A DNA stretch of 64,000 bases, taken from a virus. Taxonomy: Duplodnaviria; Caudoviricetes. Position 1 is the first letter of the stretch, and every line of letters starts with the position of its first letter. The translations under genes and the position numbers were made by a program. The stretch is from positions 1 to 64,000 of the IMG/VR virus record IMGVR_UViG_3300023283_000263; one strand, given 5' to 3'. Shown here one piece after another: positions 5,019 to 12,012 of the stretch. The notes beneath the pieces are model-generated. The model did no database searches, was not told the origin of the DNA, and saw only the letters and a list, made by a program, of their open reading frames with translations.

Positions 5019-6251
5019 GTGATAGAGACCACCCTCCGCGCCAAGCTCCCCCTCGTCGCGGTCCGCACTTCCGACCCAGTCCACGCGCCGCACGTCGTCG
5101 GCTACCTCGCCGGTCGAGACCGTTCGCCGGCGCCCCTGTTCGACGGACGCAACGTCGACCAGGACGTCGTCTACTGCTGCCTCGGGAACCCCCCGGCGCC
5201 GCGCTCCCCGGCGAAAGCCTCCCGGCGCGACGCGGACCCCGCCGAGCTGCACGAGCGCTTCGCGGGCGCGGGGTCGACGCTCGTCATGGTCAACCCCAAC
5301 GGCGCCGGAGAGTACGCCTTCGACGCCGGCGAGCTGCCGACGCCTCCGGGCGCCGTCGCCGCGTGGCTCGGGCGCCTCGGGATGCGGAGAACCCAAATAG
5401 ACGCGGCTCTGCCGGCGCTCGGCGGTCTGACGCTGCGCGAGGTCGACTGGGTGGTCCGCATCGCGACGGCCGACGGGAGCTGGTCGCCGGCGGACCTCGC
5501 TCGCGCCAGACGGCGAGTCGTCCGCCCCCGCGGCGGGCTGGTCCAGGTCCCGGCGGAGCCGCCGCCAGGTTACAGCGCGCCGAATGCGCTGAAGACCCTG
5601 CTCGTCGACTGGCGGCCCCTCCTCCTGCGGAAGGATGTCGATCGACGGCTCGTCCCGCGCGGGCTGCTCCTGGACGGCGAGCCGGGGACCGGGAAGACCA
5701 CGGCCGCGAAGGCCGTCGCCCGCGACCTGGGGGTCCCCCTCTACCGCTTCGACGCCGCGGCCGTCCGCAATAAGTTCGTCGGCGAGAGCGAGAAAGCTCT
5801 CCAAGCGGCGCTGTCGGCCGCGGACCGAGCCGCGCCCTGCGTCCTGTTGATCGACGAGATCGAGAAGCTCTTCTCGGAGCGCGACGACGAGGGCGCGACG
5901 GCCGGGATTCTGGCCGAGCTGCTCTGGTGGCTCTCCGAACATGAGACGCGGGTCCTCGCGGTCGCCACGACGAACGACCGGACGGTCATACCGCCCGAGC
6001 TGATTCGACCGGGCAGGTTCGACGAGGTCGCGACGCTGGAGAGGCTGACGGAGCCGCAGGCCCGCGACCTAGCTCTCGGACTGGCGCGGACCTACCCGGA
6101 CGTCGAAGTCTCGCGAGAGGCGATTCTCCGGCGTCTGATTCAAGCCGGCTCCGCGGTCCTCCCCGGCTTGACCCCGGCCGAAGTCGAGGCCGTCGTGGTG
6201 GCGGAGGTCCGGAAGGCGATCCTCGCCCGCGACCCCGGGGTCGCGAAGTGA
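5019..6251 (+). CDS. AAA+ ATPase (SpoVK/Ycf46-like)
   Basis: Walker A GEPGTGKT, Walker B LLIDEIEK, ATTN sensor and RPGRFD arginine finger. Confidence 0.85.
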   Translation: MIETTLRAKLPLVAVRTSDPVHAPHVVGYLAGRDRSPAPLFDGRNVDQDVVYCCLGNPPAPRSPAKASRRDADPAELHERFAGAGSTLVMVNPNGAGEYAFDAGELPTPPGAVAAWLGRLGMRRTQIDAALPALGGLTLREVDWVVRIATADGSWSPADLARARRRVVRPRGGLVQVPAEPPPGYSAPNALKTLLVDWRPLLLRKDVDRRLVPRGLLLDGEPGTGKTTAAKAVARDLGVPLYRFDAAAVRNKFVGESEKALQAALSAADRAAPCVLLIDEIEKLFSERDDEGATAGILAELLWWLSEHETRVLAVATTNDRTVIPPELIRPGRFDEVATLERLTEPQARDLALGLARTYPDVEVSREAILRRLIQAGSAVLPGLTPAEVEAVVVAEVRKAILARDPGVAK

Positions 6252-7297
6252 GCGAGAGCAAGAAGCGAGAGCGCCTGGCCCCGCGGGGCGTGTTCGCGGA
6301 ATTAGCCGGGACCCAGGCCGCCGGGGCCGCTCTCCTCCACCGGATCGCCCACTGGCAGCGGTACGCCGAGCTGCGGCGAGGCCCCGGTGCTTCGTGGATC
6401 GCGAAGAGCTACGCGGAGTGGGCGGAAGAGACGGGCCTCAGCCAACGGCAGGTGAGGAGGTGGTTTCCTCGACTTCGGGCCGCCGGTCTCGTGGAGTACG
6501 AGCAGCACTTCTTCGGCTCCAGATGCCTTACCTGGGCGCGCTTGACCCGGTCCGCGCGGGGCTTCCTTCTCTACACTAGCGAGGGACGAAAAGGGCACCC
6601 CGGGGTGCCCGAAAAGGGGCAGACCGGGGTGCCCGAAAAGGGGCACCCCTCCTATCTAGAAGCACAGGAGACTTCACTGGAGACGTGCAGGGACGACTTT
6701 TCAAGTCGTCCGCACACACCGAGCCTTCGGCTCGTCCAGGGGGGAGACCAGGAGGAAAAGAACGTGAAGCGAAAATCCTTCCTGACGTCGGACGTGCTCG
6801 CGAAGCTCGAAGAGTCGAAGGACGAGTCGGTCCGCGAAGACGACCTCCGCGCCGCGATCGAGGAGTGCGCCGCGCGCCCCGGCGAGAAGCGGCTTGTCGC
6901 GGTCTGGCGCCTCGCGTGGCTCCTGGCGTGGCCCGGGGAGACGGCCTTCGTTCCGCGGGGGGAGCACGCCGCGAAGCTCCGGCTGCTGGCCCGGCGGCTC
7001 GGGGGCTACGACGTGGCCGCGCCGATCGTGGCCGAGGTGCTCTCGCGGTGGGGGGAGCTGGCGCGCTTCCTGGACGAACGCCACGGCCTGCCGGCCTCGC
7101 GGATGGGCCGGCCGACGCCGGGGCTGCTGCTCTACTACGTCTCGGTCGTGGTCGATTGGGCCCGAGGAGACGCGGCGAAGAAGAAGCGCCCGAGCGGGAC
7201 GTTCACCCCGGGGAGCGAGAACCGGCGCAGGTACCTGGAGAGGATCAAGGCGAAGAAGGAGCGCTCGGGGGGCGAGGTCGATGACGAAGGCGGCTGA
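6248..7297 (+). CDS. Replication initiator-like protein (N-terminal winged HTH)
   Basis: KSYAEWAEETGLSQRQVRRWFPRLRAAGLVE HTH; internal tandem repeats; upstream of loader-like and helicase genes. Confidence 0.65.
   Translation: MSESKKRERLAPRGVFAELAGTQAAGAALLHRIAHWQRYAELRRGPGASWIAKSYAEWAEETGLSQRQVRRWFPRLRAAGLVEYEQHFFGSRCLTWARLTRSARGFLLYTSEGRKGHPGVPEKGQTGVPEKGHPSYLEAQETSLETCRDDFSSRPHTPSLRLVQGGDQEEKNVKRKSFLTSDVLAKLEESKDESVREDDLRAAIEECAARPGEKRLVAVWRLAWLLAWPGETAFVPRGEHAAKLRLLARRLGGYDVAAPIVAEVLSRWGELARFLDERHGLPASRMGRPTPGLLLYYVSVVVDWARGDAAKKKRPSGTFTPGSENRRRYLERIKAKKERSGGEVDDEGG
6587..6649 (+). repeat. Iteron-like tandem repeats (~2.6 x 23-24 bp CGAAAAGGG(G)CA..CGGGGTGCC); putative origin
   Basis: Direct repeats inside the initiator gene; first unit contains palindrome GGGCACCCCGGGGTGCCC (6593-6610). 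Confidence 0.65.
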
Positions 7298-7429: not shown

Positions 7430-7963
7430 GTGATCTCGCTCGCGGAGGCGCGGGACCAGCGCCTCGTGACCGAGCGCCACGAGCGGCTCCTCGGGGACGC
7501 CGACTACTACGCGGCGCTGGCCGGGATCGAGCCCGAGTGGCTCTGGCAGCCGTTGAGCCCCCACGTCGGGGTCCGCGAGTACGAGTGGGTCCGGCGCGCG
7601 AAGGCGAGCCCGACGGCCGGGCTGGTCCTCGCCGGCGATCCGGCGGACGGGGCCCCGCCCCCCGAAAGACTCGCGGCGATGGCGGGGGCTCTGGTCCGGG
7701 CGTTCGTGGATGCGCGGGTGAGGACGCTGAAGACGGCGCTGGACGACCCGGGCGCCCGGGACTGCACGGTTCTACTGGTGCCAGACTTCTTCCCGGCGGC
7801 GCGGAAGCTCCCCGGCTGGGTGAAGCAGGAGGCCGCGAGTTTACTCATGGCGCGCGCCGGGAAGAAGACCGTCGTGTACGTCGCCGACCTGGACGCGGCG
7901 CTCGCGGAGTTCGGCGAAGGAGCGGCGAGCGTGCTCTCCCGCTACGACGCGGTGGACCTGTGA
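7430..7963 (+). CDS. DnaC/IstB-like helicase loader, degenerate (no intact Walker A)
   Basis: Between initiator and DnaB; GLVLAG..., VLLVPDF Walker-B-like segment. Confidence 0.4.
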   Translation: MISLAEARDQRLVTERHERLLGDADYYAALAGIEPEWLWQPLSPHVGVREYEWVRRAKASPTAGLVLAGDPADGAPPPERLAAMAGALVRAFVDARVRTLKTALDDPGARDCTVLLVPDFFPAARKLPGWVKQEAASLLMARAGKKTVVYVADLDAALAEFGEGAASVLSRYDAVDL

Positions 7964-9294
7964 CGACGACGCGCAAGCTGCCGGGGCTCAAGCTCGTCGC
8001 CGCGATGGCGCGCAGCGGGGAGCTGGACTTCTACGTGCGCAACGCCTCGGCTCTACCGCTGCTCGCGGTCGGAGAGACCGAGCGCCGGGCGTTCGAGTAC
8101 GTGGCCGCGTTCGTCTCGCGGCACGGCAAGATCCCGTCCGCCGCGACCGTCGAGCGCGACCTGCGGCAGCGGCTCCCGGCGACGGAGGAGCCGCCGTCGT
8201 ACTACCTCGACGGGCTGCAGAAGCGGCGGCTCCACGGGGAGCTGCGCGACGCCGCCGAGGAGGCGAACCGCTACTTGACGGCCGAAGAGTACGACCCGCG
8301 GCGCGCGCTCTCGGTCCTGAGCGACGCCGTCGGGCGTCTCTCCCGCGAGCAGCAGGCCGGCCGGATCGTCGACTACCGCGAGGCGGGCGACGCGATCCTC
8401 GGGGCCTACGCCGCGGCGGCGACGGGCGAGCGCGTCGGCGTGGACTTGGGCTGGCCTACGCTGGACGGCCAGCAGGGCGGCGCCGGGCCGGGCGACCTCG
8501 TGTCGATCGCCGGACGCCCCGCCGTAGGCAAGACCTGGCTCGTCGTCTCGGCGGCGATGCACCTGTGGAGGACCGGCGGATCGCCGCTCCTCGTGTCGAT
8601 GGAGATGCGCCCGTCGCTGATCCTCCGGAGGATCGCGGCGCTCGACGCCGGCGTCCCGGCTCGGGAGCTTCGACTCGGGAAGCTCAGCCAGGCCGGGTCG
8701 AGCGACATCGCGGGCGACCGCGAACGGCTGGAGGAGAGCCTCCGCCGCGCGGCCGACGTCGAGCAGCCGTTCTGGGTCGTCGACGGGAACCTCGCGATTC
8801 AGGTCCAGGACCTGGTACTCCTCGCGCGGCAGCTCAAGCCGAGCGCGGTGTACGTCGACGGGGCGTACATGATGCGCCACCCGGACCCGCGCCTGTCGCG
8901 GTTCCGGCGCGTCGACGAGGTCTGCGAGCAGCTCAAGCGCGACCTGGCGGAGGGGTGCGATCTCCCCGTGATCGCGTCCTGGCAGTTCAACCGCGAGGCG
9001 GACCGGAAGATGCATCGGGCTCGCCCCGGATCGGACGCGACGGCGTCGGTCGGACTCGACGACATCGCGCACTCCGACGAGATCGGGAAGCTCTCGTCGG
9101 TGGTCCTCGCGCTCTTCCAGGAGGACACGCCGGAAACGATCGAGGAGAAGACGGTCGCCATCCGGAAGGGCCGGGAGGGGGAGCAGGGCCGGTTCCGGAT
9201 CCGGTGGAACTTCAAGCGGATGCGGTTCGACGAAATCGACGACCTGGAGGCCCCCGAGGGGGACGAGGAGATCGACCCGGAGGTTCTGGGATGA
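7960..9294 (+). CDS. dnaB: DnaB-like replicative helicase
   Basis: GRPAVGKT Walker A, VSMEM, VYVDGAY, SWQFNR motifs; GTG 7960 overlaps upstream stop. Confidence 0.88.
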   Translation: MTTTRKLPGLKLVAAMARSGELDFYVRNASALPLLAVGETERRAFEYVAAFVSRHGKIPSAATVERDLRQRLPATEEPPSYYLDGLQKRRLHGELRDAAEEANRYLTAEEYDPRRALSVLSDAVGRLSREQQAGRIVDYREAGDAILGAYAAAATGERVGVDLGWPTLDGQQGGAGPGDLVSIAGRPAVGKTWLVVSAAMHLWRTGGSPLLVSMEMRPSLILRRIAALDAGVPARELRLGKLSQAGSSDIAGDRERLEESLRRAADVEQPFWVVDGNLAIQVQDLVLLARQLKPSAVYVDGAYMMRHPDPRLSRFRRVDEVCEQLKRDLAEGCDLPVIASWQFNREADRKMHRARPGSDATASVGLDDIAHSDEIGKLSSVVLALFQEDTPETIEEKTVAIRKGREGEQGRFRIRWNFKRMRFDEIDDLEAPEGDEEIDPEVLG

Positions 9295-9386
9295 CCCCCT
9301 CGGGTCGGGCCGCGTGAGTTGCGTACTAAAGTTGCTATAAGTAGCGTAGTTGCGCGCGGTTTTTCTGCTCAAGCCCCTCAAGCCCC

Positions 9387-9414
9387 TCAAGTCCTCGGGC
9401 CGATCGGCCGATAA
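9387..9414 (+). promoter_or_regulatory. Sigma-28-like promoter P1 TCAAG-N15-GCCGATAA
   Basis: Exact match to FliA-type -10 box; preceded by CTCAAGCCC x3 tandem. Confidence 0.7.
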
Positions 9415-9457
9415 GAAGGACATGAACGGCGGAAGGAACGAAGGAGGACGGAAGACG

Positions 9458-9703
9458 ATGACCCGAGAGATCCGGCGCGATGGCCGAACGACTGGACGCT
9501 GGCCGCGCTACCGCCTGATTGTCGACGGCGTGGATGTTGGCGAGATCCGCCGCACAGTGTCGATGGGGCGCGACGGGCTCGCCGGTCGCCGCCAGCCCCG
9601 GGCGGATGCGTGGGCGATCAGCGGGACCGAGTGCGCGAGCCGCGACGAGGCGGAGAGCCGGCTCATCGAGCGGGCGGTGGGGTTCGGGTACCTGAGGAGA
9701 TAG
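9458..9703 (+). CDS. Small hypothetical protein
   Basis: GGAGGACG RBS, ATG 9458, downstream of P1. Confidence 0.6.
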   Translation: MTREIRRDGRTTGRWPRYRLIVDGVDVGEIRRTVSMGRDGLAGRRQPRADAWAISGTECASRDEAESRLIERAVGFGYLRR

Positions 9704-9764
9704 CCGAAACGCCCTTCGGGGTGTCTCCCGGGGCTGCCCTCCCCGGGACTGACGAGGCAGGGTA
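9703..9764 (+). ncRNA. Hammerhead ribozyme, type II, with loop I/3-prime pseudoknot
   Basis: GCC-GAAA, stem III with UUCG loop, GUC cleavage triplet (9723-9725), 7-bp stem I, CUGACGA core (9748-9754), GGC stem II, CUGCCCU/AGGGUAG pseudoknot. Confidence 0.88.
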
Positions 9765-9793
9765 GCCGTTTAGCTAGCAAGAAAGGAGACACC

Positions 9794-10093
9794 ATGGATC
9801 GGTATATCGTAATGAATAGCCGAACACGTATGCCCCCGTCGTGTTGGGGTTGCTATCGCAGGGTGGCGGTGGTAGAGCTGGACGACGACGCGCTGCGCGC
9901 TGGCGAAACGCCTCGGATGATCTCGACCCGCGCGCGCGGGGTGCGCCGTATCATCCAGACGTGGGAGAAGCTCCACGTGGGATCGACCGAGCGGTCCGCA
10001 TTCCGGCGAGCGCTCCGCGAGGCCCGCGCGATGGCCCAGGCACTGAACGATCGAGACGAGCGGATCTCGGCATCGCAAGCGATCGCGGGGTAG
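9794..10093 (+). CDS. Small hypothetical protein (lower GC 5-prime end)
   Basis: AAAGGAG RBS, ATG 9794. Confidence 0.65.
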   Translation: MDRYIVMNSRTRMPPSCWGCYRRVAVVELDDDALRAGETPRMISTRARGVRRIIQTWEKLHVGSTERSAFRRALREARAMAQALNDRDERISASQAIAG

Positions 10094-10122
10094 CCGAAAT
10101 GTGCCTTCGGGGCGTCTCCCGG
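10091..10122 (+). repeat. Degenerate copy of the hammerhead 5-prime half (TAGCCGAAA-hairpin-GTCTCCCGG), no CUGANGA core
   Basis: Sequence similarity to 9701-9731. Confidence 0.6.
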
Positions 10123-10172
10123 AAGGGCACCGCCGCGACGACCTGGAGGTCCCCGCGAAGGAGGACGGAAGC

Positions 10173-10475
10173 ATGGAAGGACGCACCGAAGAGATGACCG
10201 GCTGCTTCCCGGCCGGGCGCGTCACACGCATCCACGTCAACCAGCATGTCGTTCGCCGGTGGTCGAAGGGCGAGCGGGGGCCGGCGATTTCGCTCCAGAG
10301 GAGCGACGGGGTGCGCAGCGCCAGCGCGGTCGAGATCCTGGTGGACGGCAAGGTGGCGGCCAGAGTGGTATCGCGGCCGGACAAGCCGCTTTCCTGCGGG
10401 GCGCGAATCTGGATCGAAACCACCGAGGAGGTGCGGTTCGATCCAGATTCGCGCCAGAAAGACCTCAAGTTCTGA
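10173..10475 (+). CDS. Conserved phage hypothetical protein
   Basis: IHVNQH...PDKPLSCGARIWIET motif recalled from many phage proteins; GGAGGACG RBS. Confidence 0.65.
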   Translation: MEGRTEEMTGCFPAGRVTRIHVNQHVVRRWSKGERGPAISLQRSDGVRSASAVEILVDGKVAARVVSRPDKPLSCGARIWIETTEEVRFDPDSRQKDLKF

Positions 10476-10561
10476 GGGCGGGTTTCCGAAGACGTCACCA
10501 TCGGTGCCGGAGGAGGCACCCACGAAGCGCGACCCCGGGGTCGCGGGAGGAGGACGAGACG

Positions 10562-11056
10562 ATGGCGAAGCGACGACTGGCGACGCGGCGGCGGGAGGCG
10601 CCCGAGGCGGCGGCCCAGGCCAAGACGACGGCGTTCGACCCGGAGGCCCGGGTCGACGAGATCGGGGCCCTCCAGGACGAGGCGGCGGCCCTGGAGGAGA
10701 AGCTCGCGAAGACCCAGACCGCCCAGCGGTTGGTGCAGCTCCGGGCCGAGATGGTCGAGAAGATGACCCATATCCGCGAGGAGCTGAGCTACGGCCTGGA
10801 GCCGGACGAGAAGACCGAGCTGCGCGGCGAGTCCTACCGGGCGCGGCTCGGCGTGTGCCGCAAGGAGACGACGGTGCCCGACGTGCGGGCCGTGGCCGAG
10901 CTTCTCGGCGACGAGTTCTGGGAGATTGCCCAGGTCCGGATCGGCGACCTCAACCGCTACCTGACGGAGAAGCAGCTCAAGCAGGTGGTCACGGAGCGGC
11001 GCAAGGGCGACGAGTCGCGGTCGCTCAAAGTCGAGCGCATCCCGACGGAGACGTGA
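10562..11056 (+). CDS. Hypothetical coiled-coil protein
   Basis: GGAGGAGG RBS, ATG 10562. Confidence 0.6.
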   Translation: MAKRRLATRRREAPEAAAQAKTTAFDPEARVDEIGALQDEAAALEEKLAKTQTAQRLVQLRAEMVEKMTHIREELSYGLEPDEKTELRGESYRARLGVCRKETTVPDVRAVAELLGDEFWEIAQVRIGDLNRYLTEKQLKQVVTERRKGDESRSLKVERIPTET

Positions 11057-12012
11057 GAGCGGCCGAGATCAAGCGCTGGCTGCGGCTGGTCGGGTCGCGC
11101 GCGGCGGAGGCCGGGAGCGAGTGGGTGCAGGCTCCGTGCCCGCTCGCTCCCTGGCGCCACGGCGCGGGGGTAGACCGGAACCCGTCGTTCGGGGTGCGCG
11201 TCGAGCCGGGGGACTCGCGGACCCACTGTTTCTCGTGCGGGTGGTCCGGGTCTCAGATGGACCTCGTGTTCGACTTGCGCGGTCGCGGAGCGAAGGGCGT
11301 CGACCTGCGCCGCGCGATGGAGATGGTCGAGGACGCGGCTTCCGGGGTCGAAGAAGGCGGCGCCGAGCTGCGCGGGTTCCCGTCGGAGGAGCCGGAGCCG
11401 GTCGAGCCGTTCCCGGAGTACATGGTCGACGCTTTCGAGCCGGCGTACCACCGCGACCCCGGGGTCGCGCGGAGCGGCGCGGTCCACCCGTACCTCCGCG
11501 CGCGCGGCGTGTCGTTCCACTCGGCGCGGCGGTTCGACGCGCGGTGGGACCCGTACCGGCGGCGAATCGTGTTTCCGGTGCGCGACTTCGAGGGCCGGCT
11601 CTGCGGCCTGCACGGGCGGGCGGTCGACCCCGACGCGAAGCCTCCGTACCTGGTATACAGGCACGAGGGCCGAGCGAACCCGGACGTCTGGCTGGGCGAG
11701 CACTGGCTCGACCCGGAGAGGACGCTCGTCGTCGCGGAGTCGGTCTTCGACCTCGTCGGCTGCGCGCAGGTGTGGCCGAACGCGGCGAGCCCGCTCTCGG
11801 CGACCGTCAGGGCCGCCAAGGCGCGGAGACTGGACGGCTTTCGCCGGATCGTCACCGTGTTCGACGGCGACGAGGCCGGTAGGCGCGGGCGAGCCCGGCT
11901 GGCGCAGATGCTGCCGGACGCCAGCGTCCGGCACGTCGACCTCCCGGACGGGGCGGACGCCGGCGACGTGGGCGTCGCGGAGCTGAGGGAGATTCTGGAG
12001 CCGTTCTTGTGA
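11053..12012 (+). CDS. DNA primase (Zn finger + TOPRIM)
   Basis: CPLAPWRH...HCFSC zinc finger; VVAESVFD, FDGDEAG, DAGD TOPRIM motifs. Confidence 0.85.
   Translation: MRAAEIKRWLRLVGSRAAEAGSEWVQAPCPLAPWRHGAGVDRNPSFGVRVEPGDSRTHCFSCGWSGSQMDLVFDLRGRGAKGVDLRRAMEMVEDAASGVEEGGAELRGFPSEEPEPVEPFPEYMVDAFEPAYHRDPGVARSGAVHPYLRARGVSFHSARRFDARWDPYRRRIVFPVRDFEGRLCGLHGRAVDPDAKPPYLVYRHEGRANPDVWLGEHWLDPERTLVVAESVFDLVGCAQVWPNAASPLSATVRAAKARRLDGFRRIVTVFDGDEAGRRGRARLAQMLPDASVRHVDLPDGADAGDVGVAELREILEPFL

What the first reader, a model, noticed from the sequence alone, without database searches (positions are those of the whole stretch)
9703..9764. Complete type II hammerhead ribozyme between two early small genes
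Seen: stem II GCC(9703-05)/GGC(9755-57); GAAA 9706-09; stem III closed by UUCG; GUC cleavage site after C9725; stem I UCCCGGG/CCCGGGA; CUGACGA core 9748-54; loop I CUGCCCU pairs with 3-prime AGGGUAG (9758-64). Known: this core and pseudoknot match bacterial/phage type II hammerheads. It starts at the stop codon of the 9458 ORF and lies ~30 nt before the start of the 9794 ORF. Inference: it processes the P1 transcript and gives the downstream mRNA a 5-prime OH end.
Basis: partly seen in the sequence, partly recalled or inferred. Interest (0 to 1): 0.72.

Follow-up and report, generated by a model that had tools for sequence, protein, structure and literature searches.

The report
Type II hammerhead ribozyme in phage
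A 65-nt self-cutting RNA of a well-known class (type II hammerhead) fills the gap between two small genes of a phage; it is a real but ordinary member, with one unusual unproven feature: the strand it cuts could also mask the next gene's ribosome-binding site.

Summary
Rfam's Hammerhead_II model (RF02276) matches window 9702-9766 (+) over its full length at 43.7 bits (cut-off 37). It is the only ribozyme in this complete 77.8-kb phage genome. All core nucleotides, the three stems, the GUC site (cut after C9725) and a 7-bp pseudoknot between loop I and the 3' tail are present.

The element lies in the replication module. Its 1.27-kb block (sigma-28-like promoter motif, small ORF, ribozyme, two small ORFs) is absent from distant syntenic relatives, and none of them has a ribozyme there. 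No close relatives exist, so conservation at this locus cannot be tested.

The layout is typical. In 143 other viral type II hammerheads, the upstream stop codon abuts stem II in 73%, and the next start codon lies a median of 29 nt downstream.

The most likely role is cutting a two-gene mRNA into separate messages, which is the standing hypothesis for this class. This is a new member of a known kind.

One extra feature is new here. Nine nucleotides spanning the cut site are perfectly complementary to the downstream Shine-Dalgarno region (chance about 0.5-2%). This suggests that cleavage permits translation of the next gene. It is unproven and is not a family-wide trait.

The parts
9385..9414 (+). 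Promoter-like motif (CTCAAGT, 16 nt, CGATAAG; sigma-28/FliA-like) about 10 nt before ATG 9422 and 45 nt before ATG 9458. It is a likely start of the transcript that carries the ribozyme.
   Evidence: the DNA search finds 7 exact copies at 29-36 kb, plus 1-mismatch copies here and at 10463. Total matches are 52 against 23 expected. Activity was not tested.
9422..9703 (+). Upstream small ORF: 93 aa from ATG 9422, or 81 aa from ATG 9458, which has the better Shine-Dalgarno. It belongs to a conserved family of unknown function. Its TAG stop (9701-9703) overlaps the ribozyme.
   Evidence: GC3 frame plot. 36 homologues with E<=1e-3, and the best ones carry 6-11 extra N-terminal residues. The AlphaFold model has pLDDT 87 with no Foldseek match in the PDB.
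9702..9766 (+). Type II hammerhead ribozyme, the full Rfam match.
   Evidence: RF02276 at 43.7 bits against a gathering score of 37, model positions 1-66 of 66.
9709..9724 (+). Stem III, 6 bp with a UUCG tetraloop. After cleavage it becomes the 3'-terminal hairpin of the upstream mRNA, ending at C9725 with a 2',3'-cyclic phosphate.
   Evidence: Pairs listed; sequence. The end chemistry follows from established knowledge of the class.
9725..9726 (+). Scissile bond, between C17 (C9725) and U1.1 (U9726).
   Evidence: Position in the Rfam alignment. Inferred from the class; not assayed.
9726..9748 (+). Stem I hairpin, 7-8 G+C-rich bp, with loop I at 9734-9740. After cleavage it is the 5'-terminal hairpin of the downstream mRNA, which carries a 5'-OH.
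9749..9755 (+). Catalytic core C3-A9 (CUGACGA). The variable position 7 is C here.
9759..9765 (+). 3' tail that pairs with loop I to form the pseudoknot (7 bp, one G.U).
   Evidence: 7 bp, the longest class in 144 elements. One search shows it uses the same register as the family. The estimated duplex energy is -9.7 kcal/mol.
9720..9728 (+). Anti-Shine-Dalgarno-like 9-mer spanning the cleavage site. It is perfectly complementary to 9785-9793.
   Evidence: Whether it is functional is a hypothesis.
9785..9793 (+). Shine-Dalgarno GGAG plus the 5-nt spacer directly before ATG 9794.
   Evidence: Predicted unpaired probability rises from 0.01 in uncleaved RNA to about 0.8 for the GGA after cleavage.
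9794..10093 (+). Downstream small ORF (99 aa), a conserved family of unknown function.
   Evidence: 43 homologues at 40-61% identity. The model has pLDDT 93 with no PDB fold match.
10101..10475 (+). Third small ORF of the block (124 aa, phrog_8676, unknown function). A second copy of the promoter-like motif follows at 10463-10489.

Best explanation
Window 9702-9766 (+) encodes a genuine type II hammerhead ribozyme. It is transcribed as part of an mRNA that runs from the upstream small ORF into the 99-aa ORF, probably starting at the promoter-like motif at 9385-9411 and possibly also by read-through from the helicase gene. The RNA folds into stems I and III around the conserved core, and a pseudoknot between loop I and the 3' tail locks stems I and II side by side. 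It then cuts itself between C9725 and U9726 by internal transesterification. The upstream message then ends 22 nt past its stop codon, in the UUCG-capped stem III hairpin with a 2',3'-cyclic phosphate. The downstream message begins with a 5'-OH on the stem I hairpin, followed by an exposed Shine-Dalgarno sequence and the 99-aa ORF. The net effect is to turn one polycistronic transcript into two mRNAs whose stability and translation are no longer linked. Shown here: the identity and complete anatomy of the ribozyme, its placement, and that this placement is typical for phage type II hammerheads. Inferred: that it cleaves in vivo, and what cleavage does to expression.
For: The Rfam CM score is above the gathering threshold over the full model. 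All invariant core nucleotides, the A15.1-U16.1 pair and a non-G at position 17 are present. When the 3' tail is barred from pairing, the three-stem hammerhead fold is the minimum-energy structure (-28.2 kcal/mol). The 7-bp pseudoknot uses the same register as family members, where 57 of 75 elements with a loop I of at least 5 nt have a helix of 4 bp or more, made from 35 different helix sequences. The element is on the coding strand in a 90-nt gap between two ORFs that are real conserved genes. Its layout matches 143 other viral type II hammerheads: the stop codon lies within -1 to +4 nt of stem II in 73% against 4% at random positions, and the next SD-led start lies a median of 29 nt downstream. 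In the literature, type II hammerheads with this pseudoknot are common in bacteria and prophages, cleave in vitro and in vivo, and are proposed to process long phage transcripts (PMC3088659; PMC8782182; PMC6765202).
Against: The locus has no close relatives: the best helicase homologue is 42% identical, and protein scans of IMG/VR and the metagenome collection found nothing. Conservation and covariation at this site therefore cannot be tested. Distant syntenic phages lack any ribozyme between helicase and primase. Unconstrained nested folding prefers an alternative structure to the hammerhead: -30.4 against -28.2 kcal/mol for the element alone, and -44.2 against -33.6 kcal/mol with the downstream leader included, pseudoknot not counted. 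A fraction of transcripts may therefore misfold. The effect of a 5'-OH on mRNA life depends on the host's RNases, and the host is unknown.
Confidence: 0.85

Rival explanations
1. The ribozyme is one half of a translational licensing switch; this adds to the best explanation rather than excluding it. The 9 nt spanning the cut site (9720-9728) pair perfectly with the Shine-Dalgarno sequence plus spacer of the 99-aa ORF (9785-9793). Uncleaved or misfolded RNA adopts a two-helix alternative fold: the anti-SD/SD helix outside, and the loop I/tail helix inside as a plain hairpin. That fold hides the ribosome-binding site and is incompatible with stems I and III. Cleavage removes six of the nine anti-SD nucleotides with the 5' fragment, so only cut transcripts are translated.
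For: A perfect 9-bp Watson-Crick match has a duplex energy of -15.9 kcal/mol. The alternative fold is the nested MFE of 9700-9800 and of 9600-9850. Predicted SD accessibility goes from 0.01 to about 0.8 on cleavage. A match of 9 bp or more occurs with 0.5% of random 21-mers from the same genome, with 1 of 121 other SD regions of this phage, and in 1.7% of shuffles that keep GGAG in place.
Against: This is a single sequence with no relatives to show conservation. It is not a family trait: across 116 viral type II hammerheads, the longest helix between the ribozyme and the SD region has the same distribution as with permuted partners, and duplex energies do not differ (p = 0.42). This window ranks 4th of 77, and 2.7% of permuted pairs do as well or better. 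A G+C content of 70% inflates chance helices. The ribozyme is fully transcribed 19 nt before the SD begins and could cleave first.
Confidence: 0.2
2. Cleavage lowers, rather than protects, expression of the downstream genes. The 5'-OH end marks the 3' fragment for a 5'-exonuclease of the RNase J type, as in the glmS ribozyme of Bacillus, so the ribozyme sets a lower dose of the 99-aa and 124-aa proteins relative to the upstream ORF.
For: From established knowledge, not tested here: the downstream product of the glmS ribozyme is degraded by RNase J1 because of its 5'-OH, and some Alphaproteobacteria carry RNase J. The nearest cultured relatives of this phage infect Rhodobacter, Rhizobium and Stenotrophomonas.
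Against: The 3' fragment begins directly with a 7-8 bp G+C-rich hairpin, which generally hinders 5'-end-dependent decay. The host and its RNases are unknown. There are no data on transcript levels.
Confidence: 0.12
3. The element is an inactive relic or a chance look-alike with no function.
For: It is absent from all distant relatives examined. Homologues of the two flanking ORFs in other contigs are not next to hammerheads. A competing fold exists.
Against: E = 3.6e-9 for the genome. There is no deviation at any invariant position. The stems are intact, there is a 7-bp pseudoknot in the family's register, and the placement is textbook. Decay would be expected to hit the core or the stems first.
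Confidence: 0.04
4. The ribozyme serves to release or circularise a small RNA, in the manner of retrozymes or tandem hammerheads, rather than to process mRNA.
For: Tandem hammerheads flanking genes occur in other phages: up to 9 copies in one contig here, and also in the literature (PMC3088659).
Against: There is only one self-cleaving ribozyme of any Rfam class in the whole 77.8-kb genome. No second cut exists to release a unit.
Confidence: 0.02

Closest known systems
Hammerhead ribozyme type II (Rfam RF02276; Perreault et al. 2011, PMC3088659)
   Same: The core nucleotides, the permutation (stems I and III capped, stem II open), a short 3-bp stem II, a GUC cleavage triplet, a pseudoknot between loop I and the 3' tail in the family's register, and a location in a phage intergenic spacer on the coding strand.
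   Different: Nothing essential differs. The pseudoknot is at the long end of the range: 7 bp, seen in 2 of the 144 viral elements compared, this one included. Position 7 is C rather than the more common U. Host-genome G+C (70%) is near the top of the range seen. The element occurs singly rather than in tandem.
Type II hammerhead in IMG/VR contig IMGVR_UViG_3300017585_000084 (locus L008, 1350-1415)
   Same: The first 13 nt (the base before stem II, the stem II 5' strand, GAAA and the stem III 5' strand) are identical. The stem II 3' strand and the first bases of the tail are also the same. It is likewise placed about 25 nt before an SD and ATG. It scores 49.5 bits against RF02276.
   Different: It comes from an unrelated phage with lower G+C. 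Stem I, loop I and the pseudoknot have different sequences. A sigma-70-like promoter lies directly upstream instead of a gene.
HHphage variant of haloviruses HF1/HF2 (PMC3088659)
   Same: A hammerhead in the early/replication region of a virus, a short distance upstream of a start codon. A mapped 5' end at the cleavage site suggests activity in vivo.
   Different: It is an archaeal virus with a variant core. It precedes the helicase gene, whereas here the ribozyme follows the helicase and a small ORF.
Ribozyme-based expression platforms (glmS ribozyme; engineered hammerhead/SD 'aptazymes')
   Same: If the anti-SD reading is right, self-cleavage would decide whether a downstream ribosome-binding site is usable.
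   Different: No ligand-sensing domain is evident. In natural type II hammerheads this coupling is not a family feature. It is untested here.

Membership tests
Hammerhead ribozyme, type II (RF02276) | The covariance-model score reaches Rfam's curated gathering threshold over the full model | tested here: met
   43.7 bits against 37, model positions 1-66 of 66, best in clan CL00010.
Hammerhead ribozyme, type II (RF02276) | Invariant core: C3 U4 G5 A6 N7 G8 A9 and G12 A13 A14 | tested here: met
   9749-9755 and 9706-9708.
Hammerhead ribozyme, type II (RF02276) | A15.1-U16.1 pair closing stem III and a non-G nucleotide at position 17 | tested here: met
   A9709-U9724 and C9725.
Hammerhead ribozyme, type II (RF02276) | Three helices at the junction, with stems I and III closed by loops and stem II open (type II permutation) | tested here: met
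   Stem I is 7-8 bp, stem II 3 bp and stem III 6 bp, all standard pairs. This is the MFE when the tail is kept single-stranded.
Hammerhead ribozyme, type II (RF02276) | A tertiary contact between stems I and II, typically a pseudoknot of 4 bp or more between loop I and the 3' tail | tested here: met
   7 bp starting at the first tail nucleotide. The same register appears in 49 of the 57 family members that have a helix of 4 bp or more.
Hammerhead ribozyme, type II (RF02276) | Conservation or covariation of the element in related genomes at the same locus | tested here: inconclusive
   No close relatives are in any collection searched. Distant syntenic relatives lack the whole block and have no ribozyme there.
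Hammerhead ribozyme, type II (RF02276) | Site-specific, Mg2+-dependent self-cleavage yielding a 2',3'-cyclic phosphate and a 5'-OH | not testable with these tools
   This needs in vitro transcription or end mapping.
Ribozyme-coupled translational switch (anti-SD in the ribozyme) | Complementarity between the ribozyme and the SD region beyond chance | tested here: inconclusive
   A perfect 9-bp match. Composition-matched chance is 0.5-1.7% and 2.7% by duplex energy.
Ribozyme-coupled translational switch (anti-SD in the ribozyme) | The feature recurs in related elements | tested here: not met
   There is no enrichment over permuted partners in 116 or 77 viral type II hammerheads.

The most novel reading that the evidence does not exclude
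The hammerhead is built as a bistable switch. The strand it cuts doubles as an anti-Shine-Dalgarno sequence for the next gene, so self-cleavage irreversibly licenses translation of the 99-aa ORF. Ribosomes terminating on the stop codon that overlaps stem II could bias the choice between the two folds. That would give a concrete, testable function for one phage hammerhead, a class whose biological role is still described as unknown in reviews.
Probability: 0.2. Interest if true: 0.6.

Novelty: new member of a known kind. Interest (0 to 1): 0.3.

Why it matters
As a hammerhead, it adds one more example to a class already known to be abundant in phages: one pattern scan of IMG/VR hit its 120-locus limit. 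Its value is as a clean test case. It is a single ribozyme in a complete genome, sitting in a small accessory block with its own promoter-like motif, between two conserved genes of unknown function. It also has a defined alternative fold that would tie cleavage to translation. What hammerheads do for phages is an open question (PMC6765202), and a reporter experiment on this 150-nt region would address it directly.

Tried and rejected
1. Close relatives, to test conservation. A DNA search of GenBank phages and protein-seeded scans of IMG/VR and the metagenome collection with the helicase found nothing. The 5.8-billion-protein search gave at best 42% identity.

2. A ribozyme at the same position in distant syntenic phages (RcZahn, Summit, RHph_TM16 and three metagenomic contigs). 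None was found, only sub-threshold noise elsewhere in those genomes.

3. A link between the ribozyme and the flanking gene families. Contigs carrying homologues of the 99-aa ORF (L135, L137, L139, L140) and of the upstream ORF (L141) have no hammerhead.

4. A second ribozyme for a circular-RNA model. None was found in the window or in 63001-77759.

5. Function of the flanking proteins. Pfam and PHROGs gave nothing useful. The AlphaFold models are confident, but Foldseek found no PDB match.

6. Sigma-70 promoters and intrinsic terminators near the element. None was found on the + strand.

7. tRNA association. There are no tRNAs in the window.

8. The plain MFE fold does not show the hammerhead. 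I rejected this as counter-evidence because the competing helix is the pseudoknot itself, which nested folding cannot combine with stem I.

9. A family-wide anti-SD role was rejected.

Full report
**What is in the sequence**

The window is the first 64 kb of a complete 77,759-bp virus record with direct terminal repeats. It has 70% G+C, and almost all genes are on the + strand.

A scan of the whole window against all 4227 Rfam families gave one match above threshold. It is Hammerhead_II (RF02276) at 9702-9766 on the + strand, at 43.7 bits against a gathering score of 37, over the full model, with E = 1.2e-5. Against the genome alone, E is 3.6e-9. The remaining 14 kb of the genome holds no ribozyme of any class.

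Reading the bases directly and listing the pairs gives this anatomy:
- **Stem II:** 9703-05 with 9756-58.
- **G12-A13-A14:** 9706-08.
- **Stem III:** 9709-9724, 6 bp with a UUCG tetraloop.
- **Cleavage site:** C17 is C9725, and the cut falls between 9725 and 9726.
- **Stem I:** 9726-33 with 9741-48.
- **Core C3-A9:** 9749-55.
- **Pseudoknot:** tail 9759-65 pairs with all seven nucleotides of loop I (9734-40).

The exception is that the positions of the core, the 3' strand of stem II and the tail are each one base too low.

**Folding**

Unconstrained nested folding does not return the hammerhead. It trades stem I for the helix between loop I and the tail, which is the pseudoknot that nested algorithms cannot combine with stem I. 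With the tail kept single-stranded, the three-stem hammerhead is the minimum-energy structure at -28.2 kcal/mol. The pseudoknot duplex would add roughly -8 to -10 kcal/mol.

**Genes around it**

A third-position G+C frame plot with Pfam and PHROGs gives this order of genes:
- AAA ATPase (5019-6251)
- Replication-initiator-like protein (6248-7297)
- An unknown ORF
- DnaB-type helicase (7960-9294)
- A small ORF ending at 9703
- The ribozyme
- A 99-aa ORF (9794-10093)
- A 124-aa ORF (10101-10475, phrog_8676)
- A 164-aa ORF (10562-11056)
- DnaG-type primase (11053-12012)
- An SSB-like protein

Both ORFs flanking the ribozyme belong to conserved families of unknown function. One has 43 homologues and the other 36. 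Both fold confidently (pLDDT 93 and 87), and neither matches a solved structure by Foldseek.

These two copies bracket the block made of the small ORF, the ribozyme, the 99-aa ORF and the 124-aa ORF.

**Relatives**

The phage has no close relatives in GenBank phages, IMG/VR, the metagenome collection or the 5.8-billion-protein set. The best helicase identity is 42%.

Distant relatives keep the module order but go from helicase straight to a conserved hypothetical protein and then, via RNase H in some, to primase. These relatives are Rhodobacter phage RcZahn, Stenotrophomonas phages Summit and DLP_5, Rhizobium phage RHph_TM16 and three metagenomic contigs. The conserved hypothetical protein is the counterpart of window 10562-11056.

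The 1.27-kb block 9295-10561 is therefore an accessory insertion relative to these phages. None of them has a ribozyme there. Contigs that carry homologues of the flanking ORFs also lack hammerheads. The ribozyme is thus not tied to those genes, and its conservation at this locus cannot be assessed.

**Comparison with other viral type II hammerheads**

I parsed 144 elements that have both stems. Three things follow.

1. **The pseudoknot is real and in register.** Of 75 elements with a loop I of at least 5 nt, 57 have a helix of 4 bp or more to the tail. In 49 of those it starts at tail nucleotide 0-2, and the helices have 35 different sequences. The helix here is 7 bp and starts at nucleotide 0. 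Tails permuted among elements give 7 bp or more in about 0.6% of cases.

2. **The placement is typical.** In 105 of 143 other elements (73%), the stop codon of an upstream ORF of at least 50 codons ends -1 to +4 nt from stem II, against 4% at random positions. All three stop codons are used, at several offsets. The next SD-led start codon lies a median of 29 nt after stem II. Here the values are -1 and 35. The simplest reading is that these ribozymes fill the whole intergenic spacer.

3. **This is an ordinary member of an abundant class.** This agrees with Perreault et al. 2011 (PMC3088659). That paper described type II hammerheads, their pseudoknot and their prophage contexts, and proposed that they cut long phage transcripts into gene-length mRNAs. 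Activity in vivo was later shown for three type II hammerheads of Desulfovibrio vulgaris (PMC8782182). A 2019 review still calls the biological role unresolved (PMC6765202).

**Most likely mechanism**

The RNA is made as part of a transcript running from the upstream ORF into the 99-aa ORF. It folds and cuts itself after C9725.

The upstream mRNA keeps its stop codon and ends 22 nt later in the UUCG-capped stem III hairpin, with a cyclic phosphate. The downstream mRNA starts with a 5'-OH on the G+C-rich stem I hairpin. The two fragments are held together only by the 3-bp stem II, so they should separate at once.

Terminal hairpins at both new ends, and a 5' end without phosphate, would be expected to slow end-dependent decay in an RNase E-type host. 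In a host where an RNase J-type enzyme prefers 5'-OH ends, the opposite could hold. The host is unknown. These consequences are inferred, not shown.

**An extra feature**

The nine nucleotides 9720-9728 span the cut site: they are the 3' strand of stem III, C17 and the first three bases of stem I. They are perfectly complementary to 9785-9793, which is the GGAG of the Shine-Dalgarno sequence plus the five bases before ATG 9794.

In nested folding of 9700-9800 and of 9600-9850, this helix forms together with the loop I/tail helix folded as a plain hairpin. That fold has -44.2 kcal/mol, against -33.6 for the hammerhead stems without the pseudoknot. The predicted unpaired probability of the SD is 0.01, and it rises to about 0.8 once the RNA is cut.

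Composition-matched controls put the chance of a helix of 9 bp or more at three values:
- 0.5% for random 21-mers of this genome.
- 1 in 121 for the other SD regions of this phage.
- 1.7% for shuffles that keep GGAG in place.

By duplex energy, 2.7% of permuted pairs do as well. Across the family there is no enrichment at all.

I therefore treat cleavage licensing translation as a hypothesis with about 20% probability. It is worth a simple reporter test, but it is not a finding.

**Verdict**

The element is a new member of a known kind, and interest is modest.

Noticed in passing
IMG/VR loci L014-L133 (144 parsed elements): In viral type II hammerheads with a GCC/GGC stem II, the upstream ORF's stop codon ends -1 to +4 nt from stem II in 73% (4% at random positions), and the next SD-led start lies a median of 29 nt downstream. 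The phrase 'stop codon' does not occur in the two key papers checked. This probably means the ribozyme fills the whole intergenic spacer. It also places a terminating ribosome on top of stem II.
   Followed up: partly
window 9385-9414 and 10463-10489: Two more copies (1 mismatch each) of the CTCAAGT-N16-CGA promoter-like motif known from 29-36 kb. The 9385 copy carries a near-consensus sigma-28 -10 box (GCCGATAA). The two copies bracket the block that contains the ribozyme.
   Followed up: partly
window 9409-9425 and 35887-35903: Directly after the promoter-like motif, both sites share the same 11 nt containing an ATG (GGACATGAACG), which starts an ORF 8-11 nt after the motif. These could be leaderless or very short-leader mRNAs. 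For the upstream ORF, a start at 9422 (93 aa) fits the longer N-termini of its homologues.
   Followed up: no
window 9295-10561: A 1.27-kb block (promoter-like motif, three small ORFs and the ribozyme) is inserted between the helicase and the conserved post-helicase gene, relative to RcZahn-, DLP_5- and TM16-like phages. It has lower third-position G+C (0.68-0.82) than neighbouring genes (above 0.9).
   Followed up: partly
window 9794-10093 and 9422-9703: Two widespread small-protein families (43 and 36 homologues) have confident predicted folds (pLDDT 93 and 87) but no Pfam family above threshold, no PHROG family and no Foldseek match in the PDB.
   Followed up: partly
L037 (IMGVR_UViG_3300038412_000035): There are nine type II hammerheads within about 4 kb of one viral contig, an extreme case of the tandem arrangement.
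   Followed up: no
L009 1-1460: A distant relative (a 94-kb Logan contig) carries at least eight tRNA genes just upstream of its replication module. This window has none.
   Followed up: no
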